Position numbers and translations under genes: made by a program. Shown here piece after piece: positions 4,153-64,000 of a DNA stretch of 64,000 nt. Every line of letters begins with the position of its first letter. The stretch's first letter is position 1. The notes under the pieces were generated by a model that was given only the letters and a program-made list of their open reading frames with translations, had not been told where the DNA came from and did no database searches. The stretch lies in NCBI GenBank assembly GCA_963693055.1, contig OY843751.1:5376001-5440000 (forward strand). Reading direction: 5' to 3'. The stretch is from a bacterium. Its GTDB lineage: Bacteria > Zhuqueibacterota > Zhuqueibacteria > Residuimicrobiales > Krinioviventaceae.

Positions 4153-6908
4153 TGTTTAAAAGACTATATACATATTTAATCATAGCGTGCGGTGCGGTTG
4201 GCCTTTTTGCGCAAAATCCGTTCGAGTCCTCTTCCCCGGTTGGAGACACCTTTCCTAAAATGCCGGACCTGGTCTTGCCAGATACCCTGGCTGCAGAAAT
4301 GCCGGATACAAGCATGCTGGCATTACCGGATTCTGTATCAGCAGACACCATGGCTGTTGACTCGCTCGCGAAAACAAAAAAATCCGATATAGATACCACC
4401 ATCTTTTACGATGCACGTTCTATCTATACCGATGTTGAATCACGCACCACCGAGCTCACAGGTGATGCGGTTATCAAGTATGGCGGTATGACCCTGAAAG
4501 CCGAGAAAATCACCCTCGACTGGAAAAACTATTTAATGACCGCCGAGTCTGTTGCAGATTCTCAGTGGGTCTATACCGACAGCACTCACAGCGATTCGGT
4601 GATGCATGTTGAATATATCGGTAAACCAGAATTAAATGAAGGCGGCTCGCCCTATGTTGGCGACAAGATGGTATTCAACTATAAAACCCAAAAGGGAATT
4701 GTGGTCAGAGGCCGCACCGAACTGGAAGGCGGCAAGTACGTTGGGCAGCAAATCAAGCGAGTAAATGACGACATTTTTCACATCAAAAACTCTTCTTTTA
4801 CTACCTGCGATTTGGATACTAATCCGCACTTTCATTTCGAATCCGCAAAGATGAAAATGGTTATGAAAGACAAGGTTATTGTAAAACCTGTGGTCATGTA
4901 TATGGGGCACATCCCCATGCTGGCATTGCCATTTGCGGTATTTCCCATAAAGTCGGGTCGTCAGTCAGGCATTCTCACACCAACCTATAGTGAAAGCAGC
5001 ACCGAAGGTCGCTCTTTGCGCAACATGGGATACTATTGGGCCCCAAGCGATTATTTTGACGCAAAGTTAAGCATGGATTATTTTGAAAAAGCCGGCTTTT
5101 TGTTCCGGGGAAGTTCAAACTACAATGTGCGCTATTTACTAAACGGCAGCATGAGCGGATCGTACACTCATAAAGAGACCAACGGCAACAAAACCCGACG
5201 CTGGGATATGCGCGTCAGCCACAAGCAGGATATCAGTCCATCTTCCCGGTTCTCAGTATCCGGCTACTTTGTCAGTGACAAAGATTATTACAAAGATTAC
5301 AGTACCAACCTCTCTACCCGTTTAACGCGCGAAATGCGTTCCAACGCAACCTATACCAAAAGCTGGTCGAAACAAAAATTAAGCCTTAGCGTCAACATGT
5401 CTCGTGTGCATGACCTGCAGGATGACGTGGTACAGGAAACATTACCGCAGGTTTCATTCCGCAAGGGACAAACTCAAATATTTAAACCCAAAAAGAAATC
5501 ATCCCGCAGCTCTGGTGGATCAAGCCGCAGAGACTCGCACTGGTATGAATCGCTTTATTTTTCATACAATTCAAACCTGATCAACAAAAATCGCGAATAC
5601 CTTTCATATGCCAATAACGATACCACCAAAGAAATGGATGAAACCCGTCAAATGACACACGATTTTAGTTTTTCACTAACCAGCCCCAAAAAATTCTTTG
5701 GTTTTCTATCAATGAATCAATATTTCAATGTTAGCGAAGACTGGTTTGATCAGGAAAAAACCTATTCATGGGATACCGAAAGCGAATCCATAGATCCGGA
5801 TACCACGCACGGATTTGCAGCCCGCCATACTTTTGATTATCGAGCTTCTGCCAATACCAAATTATATGGTATGTTTGCACCTCCCATTGGTGATCTGCAG
5901 GCAATCCGCCATGTAATGACGCCTTCTCTTTCTTTCACTTATCAACCCGACTTTTCTGATCCGCAATGGGGATATTATGAAGAAATTGAAACCGATGACG
6001 GTGTAGAAAAACGCGACAAGTTTAGCGGCACACCTTCAACAGGCAGAAAAAGTGTAAGCCTTAGTGTTCAGAACTTGTTTCAAATGAAACGAGGCGAAGG
6101 TGAAAAAGAAAAGAAATTTGACCTGTTTACCATGAATTTCAGCACCGGTTACAATTTTGAAGCAGAAAAGAACAAGCTCTCTGACCTCAGCACTTCCTGG
6201 AACGCCAATCCCATGAAAAATTTCAGTCTCAGTGCCAGCACCTCACACAGTTTTTACAAATGGATCAGCGAACCAACCACTAGCAATTCGACCTATGGCT
6301 ACAAGAGCAACAATTATTTATTTAAAGATGGCGGATGGAAAAGCGGTGACTTTATGCGTATGACAAACCTGCGTCTTAATTTCTCCCTGCGCTTACAGGG
6401 TAAAAAAGACAAAGGCGGTAAAGATGATGAAGAAAGACCCTTTGAAAACATATTGGATGAAGAAGAACCAGACCCGCTTTTGGAAGAAGAAAACCTCAGC
6501 GTACTTGAAGAAGATCTGCTAAGGCGCGGCAACCGTTTTGAAAACGAAATGGCAATGAGATCGCTGAGCATCCCCTGGCAGGCATCACTCAACTTTTCGT
6601 TCAGCAATAACAAAAGCAATCCCTTGAATCCAACCAAAAGATATTATATGGGTATTCGGGGTGCGGAAATAAACCTAACCCGCAACTGGAGAATTGGTTA
6701 CACCGCTCAATACGATCTTGAAAAGAAAGAGATAGCGTCGCACAGCTTTACATTTCACAGAGATCTGCACTGCTGGGAAGGCAGAGTAGACTGGGTACCT
6801 TCAGGACCCAGCAAAAGGATATACGTAATTATTAACATCAAAGCCCGCGTTCTCCAGGACCTTAAAATTGAAAAACGCGGTGGGGCTTCGAGTATGTTAG
6901 GATATTAA
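4152..6908 (+). CDS. lptD: LPS-assembly outer-membrane protein LptD (FCB type)
   Basis: Signal peptide after ATG 4152 (TGATG overlap with rarA stop); FTTCD..PHFHF, SGILTPTY, GYYWAPSDYFD, RHVMTPSLSF, RDLHCWE. Confidence 0.88.
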   Translation: MFKRLYTYLIIACGAVGLFAQNPFESSSPVGDTFPKMPDLVLPDTLAAEMPDTSMLALPDSVSADTMAVDSLAKTKKSDIDTTIFYDARSIYTDVESRTTELTGDAVIKYGGMTLKAEKITLDWKNYLMTAESVADSQWVYTDSTHSDSVMHVEYIGKPELNEGGSPYVGDKMVFNYKTQKGIVVRGRTELEGGKYVGQQIKRVNDDIFHIKNSSFTTCDLDTNPHFHFESAKMKMVMKDKVIVKPVVMYMGHIPMLALPFAVFPIKSGRQSGILTPTYSESSTEGRSLRNMGYYWAPSDYFDAKLSMDYFEKAGFLFRGSSNYNVRYLLNGSMSGSYTHKETNGNKTRRWDMRVSHKQDISPSSRFSVSGYFVSDKDYYKDYSTNLSTRLTREMRSNATYTKSWSKQKLSLSVNMSRVHDLQDDVVQETLPQVSFRKGQTQIFKPKKKSSRSSGGSSRRDSHWYESLYFSYNSNLINKNREYLSYANNDTTKEMDETRQMTHDFSFSLTSPKKFFGFLSMNQYFNVSEDWFDQEKTYSWDTESESIDPDTTHGFAARHTFDYRASANTKLYGMFAPPIGDLQAIRHVMTPSLSFTYQPDFSDPQWGYYEEIETDDGVEKRDKFSGTPSTGRKSVSLSVQNLFQMKRGEGEKEKKFDLFTMNFSTGYNFEAEKNKLSDLSTSWNANPMKNFSLSASTSHSFYKWISEPTTSNSTYGYKSNNYLFKDGGWKSGDFMRMTNLRLNFSLRLQGKKDKGGKDDEERPFENILDEEEPDPLLEEENLSVLEEDLLRRGNRFENEMAMRSLSIPWQASLNFSFSNNKSNPLNPTKRYYMGIRGAEINLTRNWRIGYTAQYDLEKKEIASHSFTFHRDLHCWEGRVDWVPSGPSKRIYVIINIKARVLQDLKIEKRGGASSMLGY

Positions 6909-6916
6909 CAGCGAGG

Positions 6917-7366
6917 TTATTGCACAAACTCGGTATCATCCGCTTGTTGTATCGTATGAATCGCATCCTTTTCAAGATATTGGATCCACTGTGCGGAAAG
7001 CTGTACCGGGTTAAATCCATTTTTGTGATCACTATTGGGCATGGATTGCAATTCGCCCAATATCAAAACGGAACTGCCTTTTTTCAAATACTTGTTACAC
7101 TGTAATGCCTGTTTTGACCACACAACCACACTAACCAAACAGCTTTCCCGTTCCATTCCTTCTAGCTCATTACCACTGCTTTCCGGTTTGGTTGCAATGA
7201 TAAAATTGGTTACGGGTACTCCTCGCTTTGTCCAGCGTACCGGTGGATCATGGATCAATTTTCCCGCGATTACAACACGGTTCATCACCGGCATTTTGAA
7301 ATCTTTTTCTTCCCCAACTTCTTTTTCTTCTTCACTAACCAGCAATACGTCTTCTTTTTCCAACAT
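6917..7366 (-). CDS. ssb: Single-stranded DNA-binding protein paralog (OB fold)
   Basis: MNRVVIAGKLIHDPPVRWT..G.PVTNFIIAT, VVVWSKQA, LKKGSSVLILGELQS; short, lacks the DDDIPF tail. Confidence 0.8.
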   Translation of the reverse strand: MLEKEDVLLVSEEEKEVGEEKDFKMPVMNRVVIAGKLIHDPPVRWTKRGVPVTNFIIATKPESSGNELEGMERESCLVSVVVWSKQALQCNKYLKKGSSVLILGELQSMPNSDHKNGFNPVQLSAQWIQYLEKDAIHTIQQADDTEFVQ

Positions 7367-50600: not shown

Positions 50601-51749
50601 CTACCTGTTAATTGTACTGTTACGGAGACGCATGCCTAAAACAGGTTTCTGCAGCAGTGTTGTAACCAGCTTAAAACTGTCGGGCAGGGTATCGCTAATA
50701 ATTGCTACATCCTCCTGCTGAAACAAAATATCAACCTTGTATTGCGCTAAAACACTATCCTTCATCACATAAACAGTACTATCACGATTTATTAAATCTC
50801 TTGGAACAGACGCAGCATGACGAAATGTGCGTCCGGTAAATTCAACATTGACATAATTTCCAGGCAAAAAGGGAACGAGTAACTCTTTGTTCTGAAATGA
50901 AACGTAAACACTCAGGGTCTGTGCTTTCTCATTTAAATGGCTTGCTTTACGGGTGATCCTGCCGGGAATCCATAACTGCGGATTTTCCTGCGTAAATATC
51001 TTTACTCGGGAATTTTTCAGATCCAGCATCTCTACCTCCTGTACCAAAAGTGGTACAGAGACTTCCAGATTTACCGCATCCTGTAAACCAAACAAATATT
51101 GTCCCTGAGAAACAACACTATTTTCCATAACTCCATTAGAAATAATAAAGGCGTCAAAGGATGATCTGATCTTACATTTTGAAAGCAAAATTTCCTGGTT
51201 CTTGACCGCATAATATGTATTAAAAATATAGTTACTGCTAACCTTAAGCTTCTCCCGGGCATCCGTAATTTCAGGAAGATTGGGTGTAGTCTGATGAACA
51301 TTCAAAGTTTGAAAATAATTGTACCATTTTGCATAGATGTCTTTATCTTCAAGTTTTAAATCCGGAAGGATAGATGCTACAGCGCTTATAAACGCTGCAC
51401 GCATTACATAAAGTTCATTCTCCTGCTGCCGGGTGTCAACACTCAAGAGCAATTGGCCTTTTTTAACATGGGTACCGTTTTTAAGATTATTTTCAGCAAA
51501 TAGAACCTGCCCATTAACCTCTGAAAGTACGTTTAGCTCCCGGGCTGACTTTATTAAACCGTTGCCGTTTATTTTTATTGTATGGTTCTGGTATATAAGC
51601 TCGGTAGTTTCAACAAGACGTACAGTGGGTTTTGCGGATCTTTTTTGGCTGTGCATTTCATTGGAACCCAATATACCCATTGATACAATTCCCACAACCA
51701 GAATAATGACAACCGTTCCAATTCTGTATAAATATTTTTTACGCATCAT
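50601..51749 (-). CDS. RND periplasmic adaptor (membrane fusion protein)
   Basis: N-terminal TM, SEVNGQV, VKKGQLL, FLPGNYV.VEF; upstream of the RND permease. Confidence 0.88.
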   Translation of the reverse strand: MMRKKYLYRIGTVVIILVVGIVSMGILGSNEMHSQKRSAKPTVRLVETTELIYQNHTIKINGNGLIKSARELNVLSEVNGQVLFAENNLKNGTHVKKGQLLLSVDTRQQENELYVMRAAFISAVASILPDLKLEDKDIYAKWYNYFQTLNVHQTTPNLPEITDAREKLKVSSNYIFNTYYAVKNQEILLSKCKIRSSFDAFIISNGVMENSVVSQGQYLFGLQDAVNLEVSVPLLVQEVEMLDLKNSRVKIFTQENPQLWIPGRITRKASHLNEKAQTLSVYVSFQNKELLVPFLPGNYVNVEFTGRTFRHAASVPRDLINRDSTVYVMKDSVLAQYKVDILFQQEDVAIISDTLPDSFKLVTTLLQKPVLGMRLRNSTINR

Positions 51750-51906
51750 AACATATCCTGAAAATTTGATTATAGGTACAAATCAATCCATATATACAAG
51801 ATAATTAAATATACGTAAAAATCGTCCGTTGTTACCGGTTTAGACGTCCAATCCGCAAAATTAGGACATATCGAAATGTATTAAGGGAGTTAATTGCAGG
51901 ATAAAT

Positions 51907-51940
51907 AAAAAAAAGGCCCTTCCTGATGAAGGAAGGGCTT
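51907..51940 (-). terminator. Intrinsic terminator after glnN
   Basis: AGGCCCTTCCT-gatga-AGGAAGGGCTT with a preceding A-run. Confidence 0.85.
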
Positions 51941-51946
51941 GAGAAA

Positions 51947-54142
51947 TTACATAATAAATAACATTTCAGAATATTTAGGCAGTGGCCATACATTATCCGG
52001 AACGACTTTTTCCAGAGCATCAATGGGCACACGTACATCATTCAATAAATCAACAATATTATCAGCAACAAACTTTGCCTTCTTTTCCAGATCTTCAATT
52101 TCTTCTGCTTTTTCAAGAGCAGATTTTATGTCCTGGCATCCGGTTTCAATTTTATCAATATCACTGATAATTGTTTTCAACAACTCAACTTCAGTTTTTG
52201 CCGAACCCTTTGGCAGCAAGGTGTCCAGTTCTTTAATACCTTTAACAGCATCAATCAACTGCGCTTTATAACTCAATGCAGCCGGAAGGATCATTGTATA
52301 AGCAATGTTTAAAAAGGTTTCTGATTCAATTTCCAAAGCGGTAACATATTGTTCAAGTTTTGTGTTGTAACGTCCTTCAATTTCTCGTTTAGAGTAAATC
52401 TTTTGACGTTCCAACAATTCCATATTTTCTTTCTTAACAAAAGCATCCAAAGCATAAGCGGTACGTTTAATATTTGGTAAACCGCGTTTTTCTGCTTCTT
52501 TGGCCCATTCTTCACTATAGTTGTTACCTTCAAAACGAATGGGTTCAGTTTCAATAACATATTTCTGAAGGACCTTTAATACAGCATCTTTTAACTCGGA
52601 ACCATCAGAAACAAGTTTAGAAATTTCATCATAAATCAAATCAATTGAATCTGCAACAGCGGCACTAAGAACTGTGTTTGCCAATGAAACAGAAGCACTT
52701 GAACCAATAGCGCGGAATTCAAATTTCTGTCCGGTAAACGCAAATGGTGAAGTACGGTTACGGTCTGTATTGTCACGAATAACAGAAGGTAATTTTGAAA
52801 GGCCAAGATCGATGATGTAATCATCTGCTGCTTTGGCACTCTTGCCTTCTTTAATAGCATCCAAAATTTCACTCAAGCGTTCACCCAGGAATACAGAGAT
52901 AATTGCGGGTGGAGCTTCATTAGCACCCAAACGATGATCGTTTCCGGCAGAAGCAATAGTCATTCTTAACAGATCGCCGTGGGTATAAACAGCGCGTAAA
53001 GTTGATACCAGGAATACCAGGAACTGCAGGTTCTGTTCAGGAGTATCACCAGGATCAAGCAGGTTGTTACCATTAGAATCGGCCATTGACCAGTTGTTAT
53101 GCTTTCCACTTCCATTGATACCGGCAAATGGTTTTTCATGCAGCAACATTGCCAAGCCATGACGATTAGCAACTTTTTTCAATACTTCCATAATCATCTG
53201 GTTTCGGTCAGAACCCACATTTGCTTCAGCAAAAATTGGTGCAAGTTCGTATTGATGAGGCGCAACTTCGTTATGACGAGTTTTTGCAGGTACGCCCAGT
53301 TTATAGAGCTGAGTTTCAGCATCTTGCATAAAAGCGAGAACGCGTTCTTTGATAGAGCCAAAATAATGATCATCCAACTGTTGGCCTTTAGGTGGTTGTG
53401 CACCAACCAGGGTACGTCCGGTCAACTGCAGGTCGGGTCTCAGGTTATAAAAAGATTTATCAATTAAAAAATATTCCTGTTCAGTACCAATTGTGGTTAC
53501 TACACGCGTTGCATCACTGCCAAACAATTTCAAAACTTTTAAGGCTGAATTTGAAATTGATTCCATTGAACGAAGCAGCGGGGTCTTTTTATCAAGAGCT
53601 TCACCGGTATAACTGATAAATACTGATGGAATACAGAGAATGCCTCCTCTGGGCCCTTCAGCGATAAATGCCGGACTGGATGGATCCCACATGGTATAAC
53701 CACGGGCTTCAAAAGTAGTTCTTGAACCACCACTGGGGAATGAAGACGCATCGGGTTCACCCTGTACCAACTGATTACCGCGAAAACGCTCTACAACTTT
53801 ATCATCATCCAGTTCCAAAAAGGCATCATGCTTTTCAGCGGTCAAACCGGTTTGCGGCTGGAACCAGTGTGTAAAATGGCTTACACCTTTTTCAATTGCC
53901 CATTCCTTCATGGCATGAGCAACAGTGTTTGCGATACTCAGATCAAGCTTTTCACCTGTTTTAATAGTATTGCGCAATTTTTTGTATACATCTTTGGGTA
54001 AACGTTCGCGCATTACCTCTTCATTAAAAGTGTTTTCGTTAAACACTTTAGCATTATCTTTTTCTCTGGGTTCGTAAGCTACTGATTTCCTTGAAGCAAT
54101 TTCCAACAAAGCTTGATATCTTGATGTTGCACTGTCAGACAT
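51947..54142 (-). CDS. glnN: Glutamine synthetase type III
   Basis: 731 aa; THWFQP, AEKHDAF, GEPDASSFPSGG, TFEARGYT, HNEVAP, HEKPFAGINGSGKH, HRLGANEAPP, DRNRTSPFAFTG. Confidence 0.97.
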   Translation of the reverse strand: MSDSATSRYQALLEIASRKSVAYEPREKDNAKVFNENTFNEEVMRERLPKDVYKKLRNTIKTGEKLDLSIANTVAHAMKEWAIEKGVSHFTHWFQPQTGLTAEKHDAFLELDDDKVVERFRGNQLVQGEPDASSFPSGGSRTTFEARGYTMWDPSSPAFIAEGPRGGILCIPSVFISYTGEALDKKTPLLRSMESISNSALKVLKLFGSDATRVVTTIGTEQEYFLIDKSFYNLRPDLQLTGRTLVGAQPPKGQQLDDHYFGSIKERVLAFMQDAETQLYKLGVPAKTRHNEVAPHQYELAPIFAEANVGSDRNQMIMEVLKKVANRHGLAMLLHEKPFAGINGSGKHNNWSMADSNGNNLLDPGDTPEQNLQFLVFLVSTLRAVYTHGDLLRMTIASAGNDHRLGANEAPPAIISVFLGERLSEILDAIKEGKSAKAADDYIIDLGLSKLPSVIRDNTDRNRTSPFAFTGQKFEFRAIGSSASVSLANTVLSAAVADSIDLIYDEISKLVSDGSELKDAVLKVLQKYVIETEPIRFEGNNYSEEWAKEAEKRGLPNIKRTAYALDAFVKKENMELLERQKIYSKREIEGRYNTKLEQYVTALEIESETFLNIAYTMILPAALSYKAQLIDAVKGIKELDTLLPKGSAKTEVELLKTIISDIDKIETGCQDIKSALEKAEEIEDLEKKAKFVADNIVDLLNDVRVPIDALEKVVPDNVWPLPKYSEMLFIM

Positions 54143-54477
54143 AATAACTCCTATTAGTAAAATGACGGGGATTTAATTAATTATCTATATTACAATATTT
54201 TTTCAGACATGCTGCATTTTTTATCTTTCTAAAATACAACATCAAGGGGCCCATTTTCGAGACCCCTTGATTAGGAGAATAAGGAATAGTTGAAGAAAAG
54301 TAAAACATGCATTATGTATTTAAAATATATTGTCAAACCAAAGAACATATGACGGGGTTTTTTGAAAAAGAGTGCCTGTCCTGTATTGACCAAGTGTGAC
54401 CCCGTCAAGTCCACATTTAAGTAATATCCAATATTCAGGGCAGGCACAAAACTTGTCAAGTGCCAGGATTCATGTTC

Positions 54478-55176
54478 TTAAAAACCGTAAGAGAATCCCA
54501 TCCACAGAATATTTTCCATATCATCATCCAGGCCAAAAGAATAGGTCCAGCTTACTGATATATCATCGGATACGGATTTTCCGGCAGTAATTGCCAATGT
54601 GCTTACAGCATCTTCTTTGGGAGTAGCCAGCCATTTGCTTGAATAGGTACCGTAACCAAATACAGCACTCAAGTCAGCACCCATCAGGGAGGTTTCACCT
54701 GAAACTTGTACCCAGTAATCGGATTCATTCAGATTATTGTCAGTACTACTCTGGCTGGGTACAAAGTAAGCAGATACGCCAATGGGACCATAACCTACAC
54801 TTCCATAGACTTCATACTCATAATCAGCATCGTCGTTAAAAGTGTCAAAGAAATCATAGGTATATACTGCTACACCTATGGCTGTTGATACAGAACCGGT
54901 TGGTAATGCAACTTCAATAAAAGGATCAGATTCAACTTCAATGTCATCACCAAAATCGACACTTGAGCACCATAATCCAAAAGAAACTGCGCCATAACCA
55001 AAACCGGCGGTACCTTGCATTGCCGGACCATTGTATTGTTTTACACCACGCCATACATACGTGCTAACCATAGTTGCGTCACCTGAAAACTCTACCGCTG
55101 CGGATACCAGGCTTACTGACATGAGTAATAAAAGTACAATACCAATGATCGATGTTTTTGTAACGTTCTGTTTCAT
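54478..55176 (-). CDS. TorF/Gcw_chp-family outer-membrane beta-barrel protein (putative porin)
   Basis: Signal peptide; STYVWRG, PAMQG, GLWCS, terminal FSYGF; family commonly linked to glnK-amtB. Confidence 0.8.
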   Translation of the reverse strand: MKQNVTKTSIIGIVLLLLMSVSLVSAAVEFSGDATMVSTYVWRGVKQYNGPAMQGTAGFGYGAVSFGLWCSSVDFGDDIEVESDPFIEVALPTGSVSTAIGVAVYTYDFFDTFNDDADYEYEVYGSVGYGPIGVSAYFVPSQSSTDNNLNESDYWVQVSGETSLMGADLSAVFGYGTYSSKWLATPKEDAVSTLAITAGKSVSDDISVSWTYSFGLDDDMENILWMGFSYGF

Positions 55177-55246
55177 GACTCCTCCTTTTCAAGGCTATTC
55201 GTTGTGTTTAATTCAACTATTTTCGCCGGCCTTTACCCCTCCTTTG

Positions 55247-55261
55247 GCAAAGGCTGTGCCA
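55247..55261 (-). promoter_or_regulatory. Sigma54 (-24/-12) promoter of the porin gene
   Basis: Minus strand TGGCAC-AGCCT-TTGC. Confidence 0.85.
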
Positions 55262-55357
55262 TAAAAATGGATTACATGCTCATCTCAAAAAAAACAAATC
55301 TTTTTGCAAATAATTATTTATATTACACTTATAGCAAGGCCGGCTAAATAAAATTTT

Positions 55358-55430
55358 CTACCAATTTTCCCAACACAGACAGTTTTCTAACAATATTGTA
55401 TGATTCCAATAAAAAACAACAAAAATGAAC
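55358..55430. promoter_or_regulatory. Phased palindromic activator sites (CTACAWWWWTGTAG-like)
   Basis: Half site CTAC at 55358, TAACAATATTGTAT at 55388, CAACAAAAATGAAC at 55417. Confidence 0.6.
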
Positions 55431-55575
55431 GAATTGGGGATTTTCTCGGATGCAGAAATATTCAAGATTCGTGTGGATTTTCTGGCATTTATCTATATAA
55501 AACTAAAATAAACGTACATTATTCCCACTTTTGCTCTGAAATACATGCAGAAATAATGCATTAAAAGCGCAAACT

Positions 55576-55650
55576 CTACAAATTTCATTTCAAAACTTCA
55601 GACACCTACAAAAACGTAGCTCCCCCCTATGTTGCCCTACAAAAATGTTC
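55576..55650. promoter_or_regulatory. Second phased array of the same palindrome
   Basis: CTACAAATTTCATT 55576, CTACAAAAACGTAG 55606, CTACAAAAATGTTC 55637. Confidence 0.65.
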
Positions 55651-58073
55651 TAAAACTGCATACGCAGACCAATTGTAGGAATAAACCGCATGGAAACAAC
55701 ATCCCGGTCGATGTGCGGATTCGTCCACTCACCATCTACATGTTCATGGTCCGTAAACGGTTTTCCATAATACAACACATTTTTCCTACCGTAAGCGTTA
55801 TAGAGCGAAATGTAAGGCGCAAAGGAGCGGTTTTTCACTGTCAGCACTTTGGCAAAACTTATATCCAGGCGATGGTACCAGGGATATCGGATACTACCCG
55901 GCGGCACATCCATCTCGTATGGGCGTTCCCAACCCTGGCTTACACCAGTCGGTCTTGTTAAACCGTGAACATCCCAAACCGGCCTGAGACCATAGATCAC
56001 ACCGGGATTATAAGGCTGGCCGCTGTGCATTTCCCAGAACAATGACAGCATATAACCGCGTTTAAAAGTTTTGCACAAACTCGCCTGTACCCGGTGCTGC
56101 TGTTCAGTATGAGAAGGATAAGTCACTCCCTTATATTCGCGCCTACTGCGGCCCCACGTGTAACTGGCCCAGCCCGACCATCCGCCGAGTTTGGCGCTGA
56201 CCATACTTTCCATGCCCCAAGCCCTGCCCTTTGCTTGCCCAAAGGTGAGGGTTTCTCCGTAAACGGATTTTAACAGCCCGCTCATCTGCTTGTTATACGC
56301 GGAAAGCGAAATATCCATCCCCTTGTACTTTGTGCTCAATTCGGCAACCACCTGGTCCGATATTTCCACCGAATTGCCGGCATCCACAGGAAAATACAAA
56401 TCAAGGAACTGCACCAGACCGTCTTCCAGCGTGGTCGAGATGCCCTGCGCGTAACGCCCGCCGGACAGGGTAAAACGTGTCTTTTCTGAAAACCGGTATG
56501 ACGCACTCAACCGCGGCTGCAATACAACACCGCCGTTTAAGCCCCACCGGTCCGCGCGCAGACCGGTCCGCAGTCTCAATACATCCGATGCCTGCCACTC
56601 GCTTTCCGCATAGGCAAACTGTTGAAAAAAGGACTTGTTCCAGTTGAACCTGCCTTCGGGCGCGTAATCGAAAAACAGGTTAAACCGCTCCTGTAATTCG
56701 TAATGATAGGCGGACCAGTGATATTTTGTGGCAAAGCGGGAAAGACCAATTCCTCCCCTCATTAACAAGCGGTCTGACATGTGCCAGTCCATATCCGACT
56801 TGACCGTTACATCATAAAACCGGTTGTCAACGTCGTTTTCAAGTTCTGCTCTTTTGCGCGCTACCAGCCGTAAAAACTCTTCCTTGCTTTCATTGAACTT
56901 GGGGTCCAGGTCGTCCGGCAATTTCGGGTAAATAGAATTGCTGAAACTGTTTTGATATACACTCACCCAGGCCTGCGTATTCAGGTGAATATCCCTGTTA
57001 AATTTACGTTCCCATGCCAGGGAAGCGATCCAGTTGCTCCAGGTCAGATCCATATCAGAGCCGTGAGACACTTTTTTCTCAGCATCGTCAATGGAGGATT
57101 TCAGTGTCTGGCCCACATCTCCGCGGTCTTTCATGCCGTCGGCATTGCCGAACAGCAAAAAGCGCACAACCTGGTCGTCCGTGGGAAAATATTCCAGCTT
57201 GAACATACCATCCATATACGCGGACGGCATACCCACATTGATCATTGAGCCTAACAATACCAGCGAGCCCAGCCGCCCTGAAGCCAGCCACGCCCATTTT
57301 TCCCCGAATGTTCCACCAGTGGTCAGGTCTCCGCCGGTCAGGTTGAGATTGGCGCGGGTCTTGAAATCCTTGCCCGGCGTTTTAGACTGCACGGACAATA
57401 CCGAGCTGGTGCGATTGCCATACGCGGAAGAAAATCCGCCCAGGGAAAAGAATACATTATCGATCATGTCCATATTGAAACTGGTGGCAAGCCCCATAAA
57501 GTGATAGGGATAATAGATGGGTGCGCCATCAAGAAGCACCAGGTTCTGGTCGGTATTGCCGCCGCGCACACTCAATTGCGGCGAGGCCTCGTTGGAAAAA
57601 GAGACCCCCGGCGTGCGCTGCAGCAGGCGAAACAGGTCAGGAAACACCATTGCCGGCTGATATTGCAGCTCTTCCGCATCAATGACCCGCGCGGAGGGGT
57701 CCATACGCACCAGGCGCCGCTCAACACCAAGGCGATCGCGGGTTATACCTACTTCAGGCATTTCAATAACCACCGGCTCTAAACGGATTTCGATATTACG
57801 CAAATCCGTTACTTGTGCCAAATCAACACATTCGCTTTTATACCCCATAAACGAGACGCAGAGTGTATCCACAACTTTGACAGTCAGACTAAACTTGCCT
57901 GTGCTGTTTGTGACTGTGCCACCCTGCGAATGCTGTAAAGATATATTTGCACCTGAAAGCACTTTTCCGGATTCGTGATCATAAACTTTTCCTGACACAA
58001 CAGCACTATATACATTACCGGAAAACCCAATAAAGGAAATAAGCAATATCAAACTGCCAAGCACTCTATTCAT
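55650..58073 (-). CDS. TonB-dependent receptor (carboxypeptidase-regulatory domain + plug + barrel)
   Basis: VSGKVYD, PGV, SVRGG..DQNLVLLDG, GGFSSAYGNRTSSVL, GLRAD, QPRLS, terminal RMQF; ATGA overlap at 58073. Confidence 0.9.
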   Translation of the reverse strand: MNRVLGSLILLISFIGFSGNVYSAVVSGKVYDHESGKVLSGANISLQHSQGGTVTNSTGKFSLTVKVVDTLCVSFMGYKSECVDLAQVTDLRNIEIRLEPVVIEMPEVGITRDRLGVERRLVRMDPSARVIDAEELQYQPAMVFPDLFRLLQRTPGVSFSNEASPQLSVRGGNTDQNLVLLDGAPIYYPYHFMGLATSFNMDMIDNVFFSLGGFSSAYGNRTSSVLSVQSKTPGKDFKTRANLNLTGGDLTTGGTFGEKWAWLASGRLGSLVLLGSMINVGMPSAYMDGMFKLEYFPTDDQVVRFLLFGNADGMKDRGDVGQTLKSSIDDAEKKVSHGSDMDLTWSNWIASLAWERKFNRDIHLNTQAWVSVYQNSFSNSIYPKLPDDLDPKFNESKEEFLRLVARKRAELENDVDNRFYDVTVKSDMDWHMSDRLLMRGGIGLSRFATKYHWSAYHYELQERFNLFFDYAPEGRFNWNKSFFQQFAYAESEWQASDVLRLRTGLRADRWGLNGGVVLQPRLSASYRFSEKTRFTLSGGRYAQGISTTLEDGLVQFLDLYFPVDAGNSVEISDQVVAELSTKYKGMDISLSAYNKQMSGLLKSVYGETLTFGQAKGRAWGMESMVSAKLGGWSGWASYTWGRSRREYKGVTYPSHTEQQHRVQASLCKTFKRGYMLSLFWEMHSGQPYNPGVIYGLRPVWDVHGLTRPTGVSQGWERPYEMDVPPGSIRYPWYHRLDISFAKVLTVKNRSFAPYISLYNAYGRKNVLYYGKPFTDHEHVDGEWTNPHIDRDVVSMRFIPTIGLRMQF

Positions 58074-58912
58074 TGCGGCAACCCCCAATCCGCGTCAATA
58101 GCTAAAAAAATTCGTACCGAATCCATAGCAACGGCATTAAATACACCCATGCCGCCCTGAAAGTGCATTTTTTCATATTTAACATCAAAATACCCGGTAT
58201 CACGATGCTCTTCTTCAGGCAAAAAATCTTGATACAGTTCATTTGGGCGGAATGTCTGAGGTCTGAAAACAAAGGAAGAATCTCTGGCCACTACAAACAA
58301 GATTGCGGATTCGACATGATGACCATACAGCGTCTCACCATATCTATAACCCAATGACGGCAAATAAACACTTTGCCTAAATGAATCTACCTTATAAGAC
58401 CAAAATTTATCTGATTCAATATATGTAAACATACAGGTATAATAATAACAATTTCGGCTTTCACTCCAGGCTATCCTGGTACTTTTTAAAGGATCATGGG
58501 CCCTCGACAGAAAATGGTCCAAAGTATCCCCATCAAAAATATGAATATTAAACGCCCCGGGCACACGGGTTTGGGCAGTCAAAACATTGCCGCTGCTGAA
58601 TTGCACCTCCAGTTCATAATTTGTGTCAGGCAGCACTTTTATCCGTTCATTTAAATCCCGGTACTTTCCATCACCTACAGATTCAAACACAACATCTTGA
58701 TCGTTATACCGAATCACTACCCGCGCATCGTCATAATACTCGGGATAATCTTCCGGGAACGTTTTGCCGACGATCACCTGCTGGTACGGATACGTTGGAG
58801 ACAAGGTGCAATACGCAAAATAATCCCCACGCCTCTCGGGATCGAGCACAACCGGATCGAGTGAGCAGGAAAATCCGGATAACAGCAATAAAAGAAACAG
58901 CCCCTTTTTCAA
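58070..58912 (-). CDS. DUF4249-like lipoprotein, partner of the TonB receptor
   Basis: TTG 58912 after AAAGGGG; lipobox GFSC; GKY, YELEV, AQTRVP, GGMGVF. Confidence 0.65.
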   Translation of the reverse strand: MKKGLFLLLLLSGFSCSLDPVVLDPERRGDYFAYCTLSPTYPYQQVIVGKTFPEDYPEYYDDARVVIRYNDQDVVFESVGDGKYRDLNERIKVLPDTNYELEVQFSSGNVLTAQTRVPGAFNIHIFDGDTLDHFLSRAHDPLKSTRIAWSESRNCYYYTCMFTYIESDKFWSYKVDSFRQSVYLPSLGYRYGETLYGHHVESAILFVVARDSSFVFRPQTFRPNELYQDFLPEEEHRDTGYFDVKYEKMHFQGGMGVFNAVAMDSVRIFLAIDADWGLPQ

Positions 58913-59258
58913 AAATACCCCTTTATTGAATTTAATTTTTTGGAATATTAACTCTAACGCTGGACAGGATGAACGGGTTCCCAAGAGAATGAATTTTTAC
59001 GCATCCAAGAAAACCACTTTTAGCTCAAATGCCATCCGAATATTCTATCAGATGGCGCACCAGACGGTACACGAAAAAACATTCATTCCAAAAGACCCAC
59101 TAGGGACGATAAACAGAGATAAACGTAAAAATTCTAATATTCGCACACCGTCAGGTGTGTAATATTGTTGTAACTTGATCCCCTATAAAAAACCGACATC
59201 TCTAGTTCACACAATTACTTTGAAAAAATCAACTGCTTTTAAAATTGCGAACAGATCA

Positions 59259-59407
59259 AATCAAGGTAATCCGCTAATCCATTTTATCAGGGTTAAATCA
59301 GGGCAATCCTTTAATCCTTCTAATCAAGGTAGTTCTTTTAATCAAGGTCTAATCAAGGTTATCCTTTAATCAAGGTCTAATCTTTTTAATCTGGGTTAAA
59401 TCAAGGT
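59259..59407. repeat. Degenerate AATC-based tandem tract with six exact AATCAAGGT copies
   Basis: AATCAAGGT at 59259, 59322, 59340, 59351, 59368, 59399, plus variants ATCAGGGT, AATCAGGGC, AATCTGGGT, AATCCTTT. Confidence 0.85.
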
Positions 59408-59415
59408 ATAAACAC

Positions 59416-59447
59416 AAAAACCCCCGCCCTGACCGGCGGGGGTTTTT
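59416..59447 (-). terminator. Intrinsic (bidirectional-type) terminator after amtB
   Basis: AAAAACCCCCGCC-ctgacc-GGCGGGGGTTTTT. Confidence 0.9.
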
Positions 59448-59493
59448 ATTTGGATCAGATAGAACGGAGGTTTTGCAATCTGCGAGTATATTT

Positions 59494-60852
59494 TTATTGG
59501 GTAGTAAAAATCTGAAATCCACTATAAGCTTCCATACCGTGCTCGCCAATATCCAGACCGCGGAGCTCTTCTTCTTCACTAACTCGAATTCCAACAGTCT
59601 TTTTAATGGTCCAGAACAAAATCAAGCCCAGTCCAAAAGCCCAAACAAATCCTACAAGAACACCAAGCGCCTGAATTCCTAAAAGTTTGAAACCGCCACC
59701 GTAAAACAGGCCGCCATCTGCGTTGAATAATCCAATTGCCAGGGTACCAAAAGCACCGTTAACACCGTGAACACTGACAGCACCAACAGGATCGTCAACT
59801 TTGAGAACTTTATCAATAAACAGAACACTGACAACAACCAGAACACCTGCAATTGCACCAATGATAACGGATGCAATTGGAGTCACCGTAGCACACGGAG
59901 CAGTAATTGCAACCAATCCTGCCAGGGCACCATTCAATGCCATTGAGGCATCCGGTTTCTTGTCAATGATCCATGAAGTAAACATTGCCAGCACAGCACC
60001 TGCTGCAGCTGAAAGGTTTGTAGTAACAGCAATACGACCAATGTCTCCATCACCAAATGTGGTACTACCAGGGTTAAAACCAAACCAACCAAACCAGAGA
60101 ATAAATACACCCAAAGCAGCCAAAGTGATGTTATGACCAGGAATAGCTTTTGCTGAACCATCCGGGCCGTATTTTCCTATTCTGGGTCCAAGAACTATGG
60201 CGCCAGCAAGGGCCAACCATCCACCAATAGAGTGAACTACTGTAGAGCCTGCAAAATCCTGGAAACCAAGGTTTTCTAACCAGCCGCTTCCATCCAGCAA
60301 CGAGCCCCAGGCCCATGAACCAAAAATCGGGTAAATAATTGCACAAATAAAAACACTATAAATCAAATAACTGGTAAATTTTGTCCGTTCCGCCATGGCG
60401 CCAGAAACAATGGTAGCAGCCGTACCGGCGAATACGGTCTGAAAGATCAGAAATGTCCAATTCCAGTCCTTACTCATGGGATCAGTTCCCAGCAGGAGAA
60501 AATTGGTTGTTCCAAAAAAACCATTGGTAACACCAAACATCAAGCCAAAACCAACCAGAAAAAAGGCCAGCGTACCGATTGAAAAATCCATCAAATTTTT
60601 CATCATAATATTAATGGCATTTTTGGCTCGTGTAAATCCGGCTTCAACCATGGCGAACCCGGCCTGCATAAAGAATACCATAAAGGCCGCGACGGCAGTC
60701 CAAACGATATTCAGGTTGTTTTGCATACTTTCTTCAAGTGCGGCAACCGCATCCGCTGTCTCACCAGATGCAGCAGCATCTTGTGAAAAAGCCGGCACAG
60801 TCAACATAGCCATCACAAGTAACACATAAAATAGAAGCAACTTTTTTCTCAT
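59494..60852 (-). CDS. amtB: Ammonium transporter
   Basis: FMQAGFAMVEAG, SGAMAER, DFAGSTVVH, LWFGWFGFN, NGALAGLVAIT, DDPVGAVSVHG, GLD.GEHG..AY. Confidence 0.97.
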   Translation of the reverse strand: MRKKLLLFYVLLVMAMLTVPAFSQDAAASGETADAVAALEESMQNNLNIVWTAVAAFMVFFMQAGFAMVEAGFTRAKNAINIMMKNLMDFSIGTLAFFLVGFGLMFGVTNGFFGTTNFLLLGTDPMSKDWNWTFLIFQTVFAGTAATIVSGAMAERTKFTSYLIYSVFICAIIYPIFGSWAWGSLLDGSGWLENLGFQDFAGSTVVHSIGGWLALAGAIVLGPRIGKYGPDGSAKAIPGHNITLAALGVFILWFGWFGFNPGSTTFGDGDIGRIAVTTNLSAAAGAVLAMFTSWIIDKKPDASMALNGALAGLVAITAPCATVTPIASVIIGAIAGVLVVVSVLFIDKVLKVDDPVGAVSVHGVNGAFGTLAIGLFNADGGLFYGGGFKLLGIQALGVLVGFVWAFGLGLILFWTIKKTVGIRVSEEEELRGLDIGEHGMEAYSGFQIFTTQ

Positions 60853-60888
60853 TATACATCTCCCTTTACAATCAGTTCATAATTTCTA

Positions 60889-61230
60889 CTAACCAATGGC
60901 ATCGTGTCCGGTTTCACCGGTGCGGATACGAATACAATCATCAAGCGACATCACAAAGATCTTTCCATCGCCAATGTTTCCAGTTTTAGCTCCCGCAATA
61001 ATACCTTCCACTGTCGACTCTACATATTCTTCATTGACAGCAATTTCAAGACGGATTTTTTTCAGTAAATTCACCTCTATGTCAGCACCGCGATAAGTTT
61101 CGTGGTAGCCTTTTTGTTGTCCGCAGCCAAGAGCATTGGTCACAGACAATTTGAAAATTTTGCGTTCATACAACGCTTGCTTTACCGCATTCAATTTTGC
61201 GGGTTGAATATAAGCAACAACTAACTTCAT
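60889..61230 (-). CDS. glnK: P-II nitrogen regulatory protein
   Basis: [27 protein letters not shown]; upstream of amtB; ATG 61230 after GGAGG. Confidence 0.95.
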
Positions 61231-61273
61231 GAGCTCCTCCAATGTTAAGTTTTATAAACTCAATTTGCCATAT

Positions 61274-61288
61274 TCAACATTTGTGCCA
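61274..61288 (-). promoter_or_regulatory. Sigma54 promoter of glnK-amtB (variant -12)
   Basis: Minus strand TGGCAC-AAATG-TTGA. Confidence 0.65.
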
Positions 61289-61366
61289 CATTTCACACAG
61301 TGCGCTAAATTCAATAATTACAAAATTTTAATGCCGAAACCCAAAAGCTAAACAACAACAAAATCA

Positions 61367-61410
61367 CAACATTTTCGTAGCAAAAATTTTTCTATCATAC
61401 AAAATTGTAT
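61367..61410. promoter_or_regulatory. Pair of palindromic activator sites upstream of the glnK promoter
   Basis: CAACATTTTCGTAG 61367 and ATACAAAATTGTAT 61397, 30 bp apart. Confidence 0.7.
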
Positions 61411-61624
61411 GCATTTTTCAATAACGAGCTACAATAAACCATATTTTGCACGTTTAATCACCACTCTCCTTTTTCATTTCGACTGAATTTTCTAACGCTC
61501 TTTATTGTTTCTATATTAGCATCGCGTCTTGCGACCAATGGGCCGCTTTTCTGCAAATTAATAGTATTTCACCATTATTTTATTTGCTTTTTCAGGTGGA
61601 ATTTGTATATTATATCAAAATTAG

Positions 61625-61668
61625 CAACAAAAATGTAGCATATAAAAATTTAGCCTACTAAATTGTAA
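61625..61668. promoter_or_regulatory. Pair of the same sites just upstream of the activator gene (possible autoregulation)
   Basis: CAACAAAAATGTAG 61625 and CTACTAAATTGTAA 61655, 30 bp apart; downstream of a TTGCTT...TATATT sigma70-like promoter (61584-61611). Confidence 0.7.
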
Positions 61669-61694
61669 TAAATAAGCCGGAGCATAGTTGAGAA

Positions 61695-63263
61695 ATGGCA
61701 GAATCGGCCCGTTCTAAAAAAAACAGCACATCATCAGATTCTTTTAGCAAAAAATTATCGATTCTGATTGAAATAAACAGAGCGCTGGGACGAACCCTGG
61801 ATCTTCAACAGGGACTCAAAGCAGCATTGCAAATCCTTGAAGATAAGTATAATATAAAATCCGGAGCAGTTTTCCTGACAGACGATAATGATTCAACCCT
61901 CGATATGGCTACGTCTATCGGTTATCGTGCCGAACTGGCTAAAACCAAATTCAAGCTGGGCGAGGGACTTACAGGCCGCGTTGCAGAAACCGGCAAACCC
62001 ATCATTGTGCCTCAGGTAAGCAAAGAACCCCTGTTCCTGAATCGTATGAGCTCATGGAATCCGGAAAAAGACCGCGAGCAGTCTTTTGTGGGTGTGCCCA
62101 TTGAACTGGATTACCGCACATTGGGCGTTCTGATCGTAAACCTGCCTTACACACCCCGCAGGGATTATGACCAAACGGCTAAATTCCTTATCCTTGTTGC
62201 ATCAGCTCTTGTACAGCCCATTCGCTTACGTCGGGTTATTGAACAGGAGCGTCAACGCCTGATCGATGAAAATGTAATGCTGAAACAAAAACTGCAGGAA
62301 GAGCACAGCTTTCAAAATATTATTGGCACCAGTCACGAAATGCGTGACGTTTACGAAAAAGTAACTCAAGTAGCCAGGGCAAACACAACTGTATTGATCC
62401 GCGGTGAATCAGGTACCGGCAAAGAACTTATTGCACAAGCTATACATTACAACTCGCTCCGCAATGAAAAACCATTCATACGCGTCAATTGCGCGGCTAT
62501 TCCTGAGAATCTGATTGAATCCGAATTTTTCGGATACGAAAAAGGTGCATTTACCGGAGCGGTTGCCCGTAAAAAAGGCCGTTTTGAGCTGGCTGATGGC
62601 GGTACCATCTTTTTGGATGAAATTGGAGATCTAACCCCCATGACACAGGTCAAATTGCTGCGTGTACTCCAAGAGCAAGAATTTGAGCGTGTTGGCGGAA
62701 CTGAAACCATTCGTGTGGATGTACGGGTTATAACGGCTACCAATGCAGATCTGGAAAAGCTCATGCACGAAAATATTTTTCGCGAAGATCTCTATTATCG
62801 ACTCAATGTCTTTTCTATATTATTGCCTCCATTGAGAGAAAGACACGAAGATATTCTACTTTTGGCAGACCACTTTATGCTCAAATACGGCAGACAACAA
62901 AGCAAATCCATCAAACGCATCTCAACACCTGCAATTGACATGCTGATGCGTTACCACTGGCCGGGAAACGTCCGTGAGCTGGAAAACGTTGTTGAACGCG
63001 CGGTCCTGGTTTGCGACGATCAGGTTATTCACAGCTATCATCTGCCACCTACATTACAAACCGCGGAAAGCAGCGGCACCGTTGCCCGCTTGTCTTTGGA
63101 TGAATCCATTTCCAATTATGAAAAAGAGATCATTCAGGATACATTAAAAACCACACGTGGAAACCGGGCCAAAGCAGCGCGCCTGCTAAAGACAACCGAG
63201 CGGATTATGGGTTATAAAATTTCAAAATATGAAATTGATGTTACAAGATATAAAAATTTATAA
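61695..63263 (+). CDS. NifA-like sigma54-dependent activator (GAF - AAA+ - Fis HTH)
   Basis: GAF ([26 protein letters not shown]), [43 protein letters not shown]. Confidence 0.93.
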
Positions 63264-63347
63264 TTTTTTTTGAAACTTTTTGAAATTTCCGGCATCTTAT
63301 TATTAAATAATAACAATAACGATTACTAATAAAAGAGGGAATTTAAA

Positions 63348-63998
63348 ATGGAACAAGAAACTGTACAAACACCCAGTCTGCCAAGAATCAATGAACCCGC
63401 ACCAGATTTTACCGCAAAAACCACCCATGGAGATATCAAACTTTCTTCTTTGAAAGGCAAATGGGTTGTGCTCTTTTCACATCCGGCAGATTTTACTCCC
63501 GTATGTACAACAGAGTTTATGGCTTTTGCAAAAAAGAATGATGATTTTAAAAAGCTCAACACCCAGGTTATAGGCCTTAGTATTGACAGCTTGTACTCAC
63601 ATATCGCGTGGGTTAAAAGCATTAAAGCTAATTTTGATGTAGATATTCCGTTCCCCATCATTGAAGACCTGAAAATGGATGTTGCCACCAAATACGGTAT
63701 GATCCATCCGGGAGCAGCAGATACTTCAGCCGTACGCGCAGTTTTTGTAATTGACGACAAGGGTATTATGCGCGCAATGGTTTACTATCCATTATCAAAC
63801 GGACGCAGTATTGATGAAATTTATCGTCTTGTTCAGGCATTGCAAACATCAGATAAAAACGGTGTAGCGACACCTGAAAACTGGAAACCCGGTGAAAAAG
63901 TGATTGTTCCTCCACCATTGACCCAGGAAGCTGCCGACAAACGCAAAGATGAAGGTTACGATTATACAGACTGGTATTTCAGCAAAAAGCAGTTATAA
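63348..63998 (+). CDS. Peroxiredoxin (Prx6/1-Cys type)
   Basis: FSHPADFTPVCTTE, GLSIDS, RAVFVID, YYP..NGR, ATPENW. Confidence 0.95.
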   Translation: MEQETVQTPSLPRINEPAPDFTAKTTHGDIKLSSLKGKWVVLFSHPADFTPVCTTEFMAFAKKNDDFKKLNTQVIGLSIDSLYSHIAWVKSIKANFDVDIPFPIIEDLKMDVATKYGMIHPGAADTSAVRAVFVIDDKGIMRAMVYYPLSNGRSIDEIYRLVQALQTSDKNGVATPENWKPGEKVIVPPPLTQEAADKRKDEGYDYTDWYFSKKQL

Positions 63999-64000
63999 GC

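What the first reader, a model, noticed from the sequence alone, without database searches (positions are those of the whole stretch)
51947..63263. NifA-like activator apparently running ammonium assimilation without nitrogenase, through a phased palindrome
Seen: a GAF-AAA+-HTH activator divergent from glnK-amtB; sigma54 promoters before glnK and before the TorF/Gcw_chp porin; glnN downstream; no nif or ntrBC genes in the window. A 14-bp palindrome of consensus CTACAWWWWTGTAG recurs at least eight times (55388, 55417, 55606, 55637, 61367, 61397, 61625, 61655, plus half sites), always in groups 29-32 bp apart. Two groups lie 80-170 bp upstream of the sigma54 promoters, and one lies just upstream of the activator gene. 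It is not the NifA TGT-N10-ACA site or the NtrC TGCAC site. Inference: an NtrC-independent nitrogen regulon controlled by P-II or 2-oxoglutarate through the GAF domain, with autorepression.
Basis: partly seen in the sequence, partly recalled or inferred. Interest (0 to 1): 0.7.

Follow-up and report, generated by a model that had tools for sequence, protein, structure and literature searches.

The report
NifA-like activator's ammonium-assimilation regulon
Paired DNA palindromes sit in front of this uncultured bacterium's ammonium-uptake genes and of the NifA-like regulator gene beside them, and are likely that regulator's docking sites; the element is real and conserved, but the same motif and a similar gene set were already predicted in sulfate-reducing bacteria, so it extends a known kind.

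Summary
Eight ACA-W4-TGT palindromes form four pairs 29-31 bp apart. In relatives, 33 of 35 activator-upstream regions carry the site (87 sites versus 4.9 shuffled; 26 pairs at 29-30 bp versus 0.02). A genome-wide scan for pair plus sigma-54 promoter returns four promoters: glnK-amtB, the porin, a second glnK-amtB, and a second NifA-like gene.

"Without nitrogenase" needs correcting. This genome has nifH, nifD and nifK behind that second activator, but nifB, nifE and nifN were not found. The activator is in 38 of 41 genomes of the order; nifD is in 2.

No NtrC or GlnD passes its cut-off in 41 genomes. P-II is probably not the required signal: 9 genomes keep the activator although no P-II was found, so direct metabolite sensing by GAF is more likely (untested).

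Novelty is limited. Kazakov 2015 predicted this motif for Desulfovibrio DVU1949 (ammonium transporter, glutamine synthetase III, autoregulation) and DVUA0143 (nif), and AnfA binds TAC-N6-GTA. This scan noted the same circuit in about ten other genomes. Binding is not shown experimentally.

The parts
61695..63263 (+). One-component sigma-54 activator, GAF-AAA+-HTH (NifA-like), 522 aa, GAFTGA motif intact
61625..61668 (.). Palindrome pair (61625-61638, 61655-61668; 30 bp) ending 26 bp before the activator start; likely autoregulatory operator, possibly also distal enhancer of glnK
61367..61410 (.). Palindrome pair (61367-61380, 61397-61410; 30 bp), predicted enhancer of the glnK-amtB promoter
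61273..61288 (-). Sigma-54 -24/-12 site TGGCACAAATGTTGAA (GA at -12) of glnK-amtB
60889..61230 (-). glnK, P-II protein; Ile at position 51 instead of the uridylylated Tyr; Gln39 and Lys58 kept
59494..60852 (-). amtB ammonium transporter
59414..59447 (.). GC-rich hairpin flanked by A/T runs just after amtB; likely terminator
55606..55650 (.). Distal palindrome pair (55606-55619, 55637-55650; 31 bp) upstream of the porin promoter
55388..55430 (.). Proximal palindrome pair (55388-55401, 55417-55430; 29 bp), predicted enhancer of the porin promoter
55246..55261 (-). Sigma-54 -24/-12 site TGGCACAGCCTTTGCC of torF(-glnN)
54478..55176 (-). TorF/Gcw_chp-family putative porin
   Evidence: borderline score; synteny with amtB
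54373..54446 (-). Conserved RNA hairpin between torF and glnN, role unknown
51947..54142 (-). glnN, glutamine synthetase type III, the only glutamine synthetase found in the genome; co-transcription with torF is inferred
55650..58984 (-). TonB receptor plus DUF4249 gene; genus-specific insertion, not part of the conserved module

Best explanation
The GAF-AAA+-HTH protein is likely the one-component master activator of nitrogen assimilation in this lineage, predicted to bind the paired ACA-W4-TGT palindromes and to switch on sigma-54 promoters of the ammonium transporter, porin and glutamine synthetase genes. Shown in sequence: pairs 29-31 bp apart, 65-126 bp upstream of -24/-12 sites at four promoters of this genome (glnK-amtB, torF, a second glnK-amtB, a second NifA-like gene), and the same layout across the order. 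Inferred: two dimers on the same face of the helix nucleate the AAA+ ring, which loops to sigma-54 polymerase when nitrogen is short. Inferred: the GAF domain reads a small metabolite directly (2-oxoglutarate or glutamine; about 55% against P-II or another protein), with no need for NtrB, GlnD or P-II. Inferred: the pair just before its own start codon represses its own gene. Inferred: in this genus it also heads a two-step cascade, turning on the second NifA-like gene, whose product would read a different repeat at the nifH promoter.
For: Footprint: 87 sites in 33 of 35 orthologue-upstream regions against 4.9 in shuffles; 26 of 27 site-to-site distances under 80 bp are 29 or 30. De novo: ACA-N4-TGT in 35 of 35. 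Synteny: 26 of 36 relatives' loci have glnK, torF, glnN or glnA directly upstream of the activator; 6 do not, 4 end at a contig edge. Targets elsewhere: pairs before 14 of 20 further amt loci (13 of 19 without the one that proved activator-linked) against 2 of 20 loci of another gene, both in this genus. A strict two-site pattern hits 24 of 41 genomes, the reversed control 0; the hits I examined lie before amt/glnK, torF, glutamine synthetase genes, the activator, or two genus-specific candidates. Genome-wide pair plus promoter scan gives exactly 4 promoters, all nitrogen-related; control spacings give 0, 0, 3, 0. Activator in 38 of 41 genomes, nifD over cut-off in 2 of 41, NtrC over cut-off in 0 of 41, GlnD in 0 of 41, rpoN present. 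P-II not found in 12 of 41, 9 of which keep the activator; five of these have it divergent from glnN with site pairs. The GAF pocket motif is kept in 7 of those 9. GAF is closest to Aquifex Nlh1 (E 5.8e-19) and also matches NifA and PtsP-type GAF domains; A. vinelandii NifA GAF binds 2-oxoglutarate (PMC12998190 passages). A pair lies at a fixed place before the activator start, also in four loci with no divergent nitrogen gene (L007, L008, L010, L016).
Against: No binding, expression or ligand data exist here. The genome has about 26 sigma-54 activators, so assignment of the site to this one rests on synteny and co-occurrence. The NtrC cut-off is strict (only 1 of 3 ringing controls passes), so a receiver-type nitrogen activator is not excluded. 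GAF identity is lower in P-II-less genomes (0.58, n=9, against 0.74, n=24) while AAA+ is equal, and the pocket motif has decayed in two of them; this could mean P-II contacts GAF where present, though P-II-bearing members of the same genera are just as diverged. The P-II-less genomes are 78-95% complete drafts and are related to each other. The nifA-paralogue pair is weak (19.4 bits, rank 15) and is known from two close genomes only. Many targets have a second, distal pair even when far from the activator, so the pair at 61625 may serve glnK rather than repress. No matching sigma-70 promoter for the activator passed the scan. gltBD has one site and no sigma-54 match.
Confidence: 0.8

Rival explanations
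1. Same regulon, but the signal reaches the activator through P-II (GlnK-ATP-2-oxoglutarate binding the GAF domain), as the first reader proposed and as in NifL-less proteobacterial NifA (recalled).
For: glnK is the gene directly divergent from the activator in 15 of 36 relatives' loci; GlnK keeps Gln39 and Lys58; GAF is less conserved where P-II was not found.
Against: 9 of 38 activator-bearing genomes show no P-II and no Amt, i.e. P-II tracks the transporter, not the activator; site pairs persist before glnN or glnA there; no GlnD and no Tyr51.
Confidence: 0.25
2. The palindromes are read by another regulator (one of the other sigma-54 activators or the nif-linked paralogue), and the neighbouring activator is only a co-regulated gene.
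For: About 26 activators in the genome; Desulfovibrio DVUA0143, a nif activator with a different recognition helix, is predicted to use the same core, so helix sequence does not fix the assignment.
Against: The nif-linked paralogue was found in 2 of 41 genomes while the sites are order-wide; the motif follows this protein family into Calditrichota, Marinimicrobia, Desulfobacterota and Chlorobiota; none of the three genomes lacking the orthologue has a strict two-site match (weak, 14 orthologue-bearing genomes also have none).
Confidence: 0.08
3. The sites are AT-rich chance matches or structural DNA, not operators.
For: The degenerate consensus is not enriched over the whole window (39 against 39.5).
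Against:: strong enrichment, fixed spacing and position, zero reversed-pattern hits.
Confidence: 0.01

Closest known systems
DVU1949 regulon of Desulfovibrio vulgaris and other Desulfovibrionales (Kazakov et al. 2015, PMC4641369; computational)
   Same: Single-component sigma-54 activator; predicted targets include an ammonium transporter operon (DVU1231-33) and glutamine synthetase III (DVU1258); proposed autoregulation; listed sites share the ACA-W4-TGT core, e.g. ATTACAAAATTGTAAT.
   Different: Other phylum; gene lies with iorAB, not divergent from glnK-amtB; D. vulgaris also has a response regulator (DVU3220) at amt; the rows I saw do not show a fixed 29-30 bp pairing; orthology and its sensor domain were not tested here.
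DVUA0143, predicted nif activator of Desulfovibrionales (same paper)
   Same: 14-bp sites of the same consensus; CTACAAAAATGTAG is listed upstream of nifH; GAF-type N-terminus likened to AnfA/VnfA; about 41% identical plasmid protein.
   Different: Targets are nif operons; recognition helix TPRQMGYR against TERIMGYK; groups with canonical NifA in my quick tree.
AnfA of Rhodobacter capsulatus; VnfA of Azotobacter vinelandii (PMC7294313)
   Same: GAF-AAA+-HTH; two palindromic sites, consensus TAC-N6-GTA (VnfA GTAC-N6-GTAC), both needed for full activation, shown by reporter and gel shift. TACA-W4-TGTA fits TAC-N6-GTA.
   Different: Controls alternative nitrogenase genes; AnfA/VnfA carry GAF cysteine motifs, whereas this protein has only Cys266 and Cys440.
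Aquifex aeolicus Nlh1 (PDB 4g3k, 4g3w)
   Same: Best GAF match in PDB; a review says it is speculated to control nitrogen assimilation instead of fixation, through an unknown GAF ligand (PMC9866876 passage).
   Different: Its binding site and targets could not be checked; the primary papers were not held.
Canonical NifA (TIGR01817)
   Same: Domain order; orthologues straddle the cut-off (525.2 here; 537.4 in a genome without nifD).
   Different: Site is ACA-N4-TGT, not TGT-N10-ACA; recognition helix differs; no link to nif in 36 of 38 genomes.
NtrB/NtrC of enterobacteria and GnfL/GnfM of Geobacter (PMC2995071 passages)
   Same: Role: activates glnK-amtB, glutamine synthetase and a nif-specific second tier from paired upstream sites at sigma-54 promoters.
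   Different: Those are phosphorylated receiver-domain regulators; this one has GAF, and no GlnD was found.
Leptospira EbpA (review passages, PMC12655853)
   Same: GAF-type activator shown genetically to drive amtB through sigma-54.
   Different: Two GAF domains, FhlA-like; site not seen by me.

Membership tests
sigma-54 enhancer-binding protein | AAA+ domain with GAFTGA, C-terminal HTH, rpoN in the genome | tested here: met
Canonical NifA | TIGR01817 above cut-off | tested here: inconclusive
   525.2 against 528.85; orthologues 510-560
Canonical NifA | TGT-N10-ACA upstream sites | tested here: not met
   10 of 35 against 73 of 300 background
Canonical NifA | Co-occurs with and is linked to nif genes | tested here: not met
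   38 of 41 genomes have it, 2 of 41 have nifD; nifH is served by a paralogue
NtrC | Receiver domain and cognate NtrB; TGCAC-type site (recalled) | tested here: not met
   GAF, no receiver; TIGR01818 346.9 against 558.6; top de novo motif is ACA-N4-TGT
DVU1949-type nitrogen regulon | ACA-W4-TGT motif | tested here: met
   against published site rows
DVU1949-type nitrogen regulon | Targets: ammonium transporter, glutamine synthetase, own gene | tested here: met
   computational on both sides
DVU1949-type nitrogen regulon | Orthology to the DVU1949 protein | not tested
   No D. vulgaris chromosome could be fetched; labels in the paper's DNA-binding-domain table look rotated. Homologues at 44-55% occur in 21 of 41 genomes of the phylum of G051.
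AnfA/VnfA | TAC-N6-GTA paired sites | tested here: met
AnfA/VnfA | Cysteine motif in GAF; alternative nitrogenase targets | tested here: not met
   No Cys in GAF; the only NifD-like protein is Mo-type
P-II-controlled NifA | P-II binds the N-terminal domain | not testable with these tools
Diazotroph (nifHDKENB set) | nifH, D, K, E, N, B all present | tested here: not met
   H, D, K present; only two nitrogenase-component matches in the genome; nifB not found in G000 or G001 while two other genomes ring

The most novel reading that the evidence does not exclude
This is a widespread, experimentally untouched master nitrogen regulator that replaces the whole GlnD-P-II-NtrB-NtrC relay with one GAF protein reading a metabolite directly at helically phased site pairs. 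It is the general-purpose stock from which nif-specific activators were recruited several times (Chlorobiota use the same site at nifH), and in this genus it has captured an acquired, cofactor-less nifHDK cluster by placing its sites before that cluster's own activator.
Probability: 0.3. Interest if true: 0.6.

Novelty: new member of a known kind. Interest (0 to 1): 0.33.

Why it matters
It gives a testable operator, promoter set and regulator for nitrogen control in an uncultured lineage without the textbook relay. It warns that a 'nifA' label is not a sign of nitrogen fixation: an orthologue from a genome with no nifD passes the NifA cut-off. The P-II-less genomes point to direct metabolite sensing, which a single ligand-binding experiment could settle. 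The motif and regulon type were already predicted in print, so the surprise for a specialist is modest.

Tried and rejected
TGT-N10-ACA as the site: rejected. 'No nitrogenase in the genome': rejected for nifHDK, but cofactor genes were not found. The 257-aa ORF with H+-pyrophosphatase as a conserved target: pair only in this genus, 2 of 20 loci, and it fails the pair-plus-promoter scan. TonB receptor at C1:190288 as a target: two pairs but only a weak promoter; 30-39% local identity to a TonB receptor divergent from the activator in a relative; left open. Glutamine synthetase itself as the partner: disfavoured, since type I and type III alternate next to the activator. Rfam on 51500-64000: nothing at gathering score. 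ANTAR search: no match, but no control rang, so uninformative. Structure model (pLDDT 90.2) and fold search only confirmed an ordinary sigma-54 activator. Complex prediction of GlnK with GAF: not available, no verdict. Sequencing runs: no RNA holder listed. First tree did not finish; the tree used is a FastTree of 56 rows chosen from 108 distinct proteins plus 9 added rows, with long-branch warnings and no clade test. Papers not held: Hu 2017, Zhang 2018, Batchelor 2013, Studholme 2000. Literature searches returned no description of this regulator in KSB1 or Calditrichota and no follow-up on DVU1949 (one paper); most subscription papers and RegPrecise are outside the library.


Full report
Observation. 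The genes are as described: a 522-aa GAF-AAA+-HTH protein at 61695-63263, divergent from glnK and amtB, then (after a TonB receptor and a DUF4249 gene) a TorF-family porin and glutamine synthetase III. The eight palindromes are at the stated positions in four pairs spaced 29, 31, 30 and 30 bp. Closest named hits are titled candidate division KSB1 and Calditrichota; the genome is one 6.5-Mb contig, 100% complete.

The site is real. Orthologues at 67% identity or more occur in 38 of 41 genomes of the order, two of them split across contigs. In 35 upstream regions from other genera, a matrix from the eight window sites finds 87 sites in 33 regions (shuffles: mean 4.9, maximum 10), and 26 of 27 distances under 80 bp are 29 or 30 (shuffles 0.02). 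Without any matrix, ACA-N4-TGT is the top spaced palindrome (35 of 35 against 60 of 300 background windows); TGT-N10-ACA is not enriched (10 of 35 against 73 of 300). A matrix built from relatives only puts 8 of 15 window sites into the two intergenic regions, 0.1 expected. Over all loci scanned (many fetched twice, so not independent), 175 pairs had spacings 30 (118), 29 (50), 28 (6) and 31 (1), and 81 had a sigma-54-like site nearby, nearly all 60-190 bp away; -12 read GC 62, GA 18, GT 11 times.

The regulon. In 26 of 36 relatives' loci the gene upstream of the activator is glnK (15), torF (4), glnN (6) or glnA (1); 6 have something else and 4 end at a contig edge. Pairs also precede 14 of 20 other amt loci against 2 of 20 loci of a comparison gene. 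A strict two-site pattern hits 24 of 41 genomes and its reversed control none; hits away from known loci lie before glutamine synthetase I or III genes, apart from a TonB receptor gene in this genus. In this genome, pair plus promoter gives four promoters: glnK-amtB, torF, a second glnK-amtB at C1:5757636, and a second NifA-like gene at C1:313201; control spacings give 0, 0, 3 and 0. glnN has no pair of its own here; its reading from the torF promoter is inferred, and relatives often place pair and promoter directly before glnN.

Nitrogenase. The genome has nifH, two nifI genes, nifD, nifK and a ferredoxin directly behind the second activator (49% identical). nifB, nifE and nifN were not found here or (nifB, and no third nifD-like match) in the sister genome, so the cluster lacks the usual cofactor genes and may not work. 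The nifH promoter has a sigma-54 site, no TGT-N10-ACA, and an inverted TGACAATTATTTCCG repeat kept in the sister genome; the paralogue's recognition helix (TPRMVRYK) differs from the activator's (TERIMGYK). I infer a two-step cascade. Across the order nifD passes its cut-off in 2 of 41 genomes; 0 of 5 Calditrichota and Marinimicrobia genomes and 2 of 5 more distant genomes had nitrogenase components.

Signal. NtrC and GlnD pass their cut-offs in 0 of 41 genomes (the NtrC cut-off is strict). GlnK has Ile at position 51, where three deltaproteobacterial GlnKs in the same alignment have Tyr. P-II and Amt are missing together from the same 12 genomes; 9 of these keep the activator (78-95% complete), five with it divergent from glnN and with site pairs. 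The conserved GAF stretch GEGxxGR...SKEPxFLNR is kept in 7 of the 9, although overall GAF identity is lower (0.58 against 0.74) and lineage effects explain part of that. The GAF domain is closest to Aquifex Nlh1, then NifA, Nlh2 and PtsP-type GAF domains.

Autoregulation. A pair lies just before the activator start codon in most orthologues, including four loci with no divergent nitrogen gene, and it is the best-aligned block of the intergenic region. Against this, many targets carry a second, distal pair even far from the activator, and no sigma-70 promoter passed the scan there. Autorepression is likely, not shown.

Reach. The site follows the protein family into Calditrichota, Marinimicrobia, Desulfobacterota, Omnitrophota and Syntrophus, mostly beside amt, glnK or glutamine synthetase, and in Chlorobiota it lies before nifH with 28-bp spacing; Gemmatimonadota homologues mostly showed none nearby. 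In a FastTree of 56 rows the activator sits in a well-supported group of 19 apart from canonical NifA (long branches, no clade test).

What is known. Leads from earlier notes of this scan were checked. Kazakov et al. 2015 (PMC4641369; passages, section 6, supplementary file 2 whole, rows of files 3-5) predict for the single-component activator DVU1949 a nitrogen regulon with an ammonium transporter operon and glutamine synthetase III, autoregulation, and sites with the same core; for DVUA0143 they list CTACAAAAATGTAG before nifH. I saw 39 of 117 DVU1949 places and all 25 DVUA0143 places. R. capsulatus AnfA binds two TAC-N6-GTA sites (PMC7294313, abstract and passages). Nlh1 is speculated to serve assimilation (PMC9866876 passage); Leptospira EbpA drives amtB (PMC12655853 passages). 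Also read as passages: PMC2995071, PMC2607301, PMC12998190, PMC12316311. Orthology to DVU1949 was not tested.

Verdict. A real, well-supported regulon, a new member of a kind predicted in print and seen repeatedly by this scan. What this window adds is the KSB1-wide footprint, the fixed 29-30 bp pairing, evidence that P-II is dispensable, and a probable cascade onto an incomplete nif cluster. Interest 0.33.

Noticed in passing
G000:C1:313201-320052 (L001:5202-12053): nifA-like, nifH, nifI1, nifI2, nifD, nifK, ferredoxin with intact frames, but nifB, nifE and nifN not found in a complete single-contig genome; same pattern in the sister genome. A structural nitrogenase cluster without cofactor genes.
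   Followed up: partly
L001:6782-6828 and 6904-6918 (nifH promoter): Inverted repeat TGACAATTATTTCCG plus a third half-site, kept in the sister genome; candidate site of the nif-linked activator, unlike TGT-N10-ACA.
   Followed up: partly
window 54373-54446 (-): Hairpin between torF and glnN conserved in 4 genomes of 2 genera with 2 of 16 pairs changed on both sides and an invariant TGACGGG loop; no Rfam match; a complementary CCCCGTCA lies near the glnN ribosome site in this genus.
   Followed up: partly
window 55650-58984: TonB receptor and DUF4249 gene inserted between amtB and torF only in this genus; the receptor's stop codon touches palindrome 55637.
   Followed up: partly
window 59250-59410: Irregular tandem copies of AATCAAGGT between the amtB terminator and the DUF4249 gene.
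   Followed up: no
G000:C1:3799012 and C1:189723/189877: Strong site pairs before an unannotated 257-aa ORF with an H+-pyrophosphatase gene, and before a TonB receptor; both seen only in this genus, with weak promoter matches.
   Followed up: partly
L094, L095, L100, L106, L115 (Chlorobiota): Same palindrome in pairs 28 bp apart about 153 bp before the nifH sigma-54 site; single sites before some amt operons.
   Followed up: partly
PMC4641369 supplementary file 2: The DNA-binding domain labelled DVU1949 equals the C-terminus of the plasmid protein WP_011176720 (L129), so the first labels look rotated.
   Followed up: no
L033, L034, L051, L063, L064, L068, L070: Orthologues whose GAF pocket motif has decayed while the AAA+ domain is conserved; may have lost or changed the ligand.
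   Followed up: no
window 61273-61288 and relatives: Sigma-54 promoters of this regulon often read GA or GT instead of GC at -12 (29 of 91).
   Followed up: no
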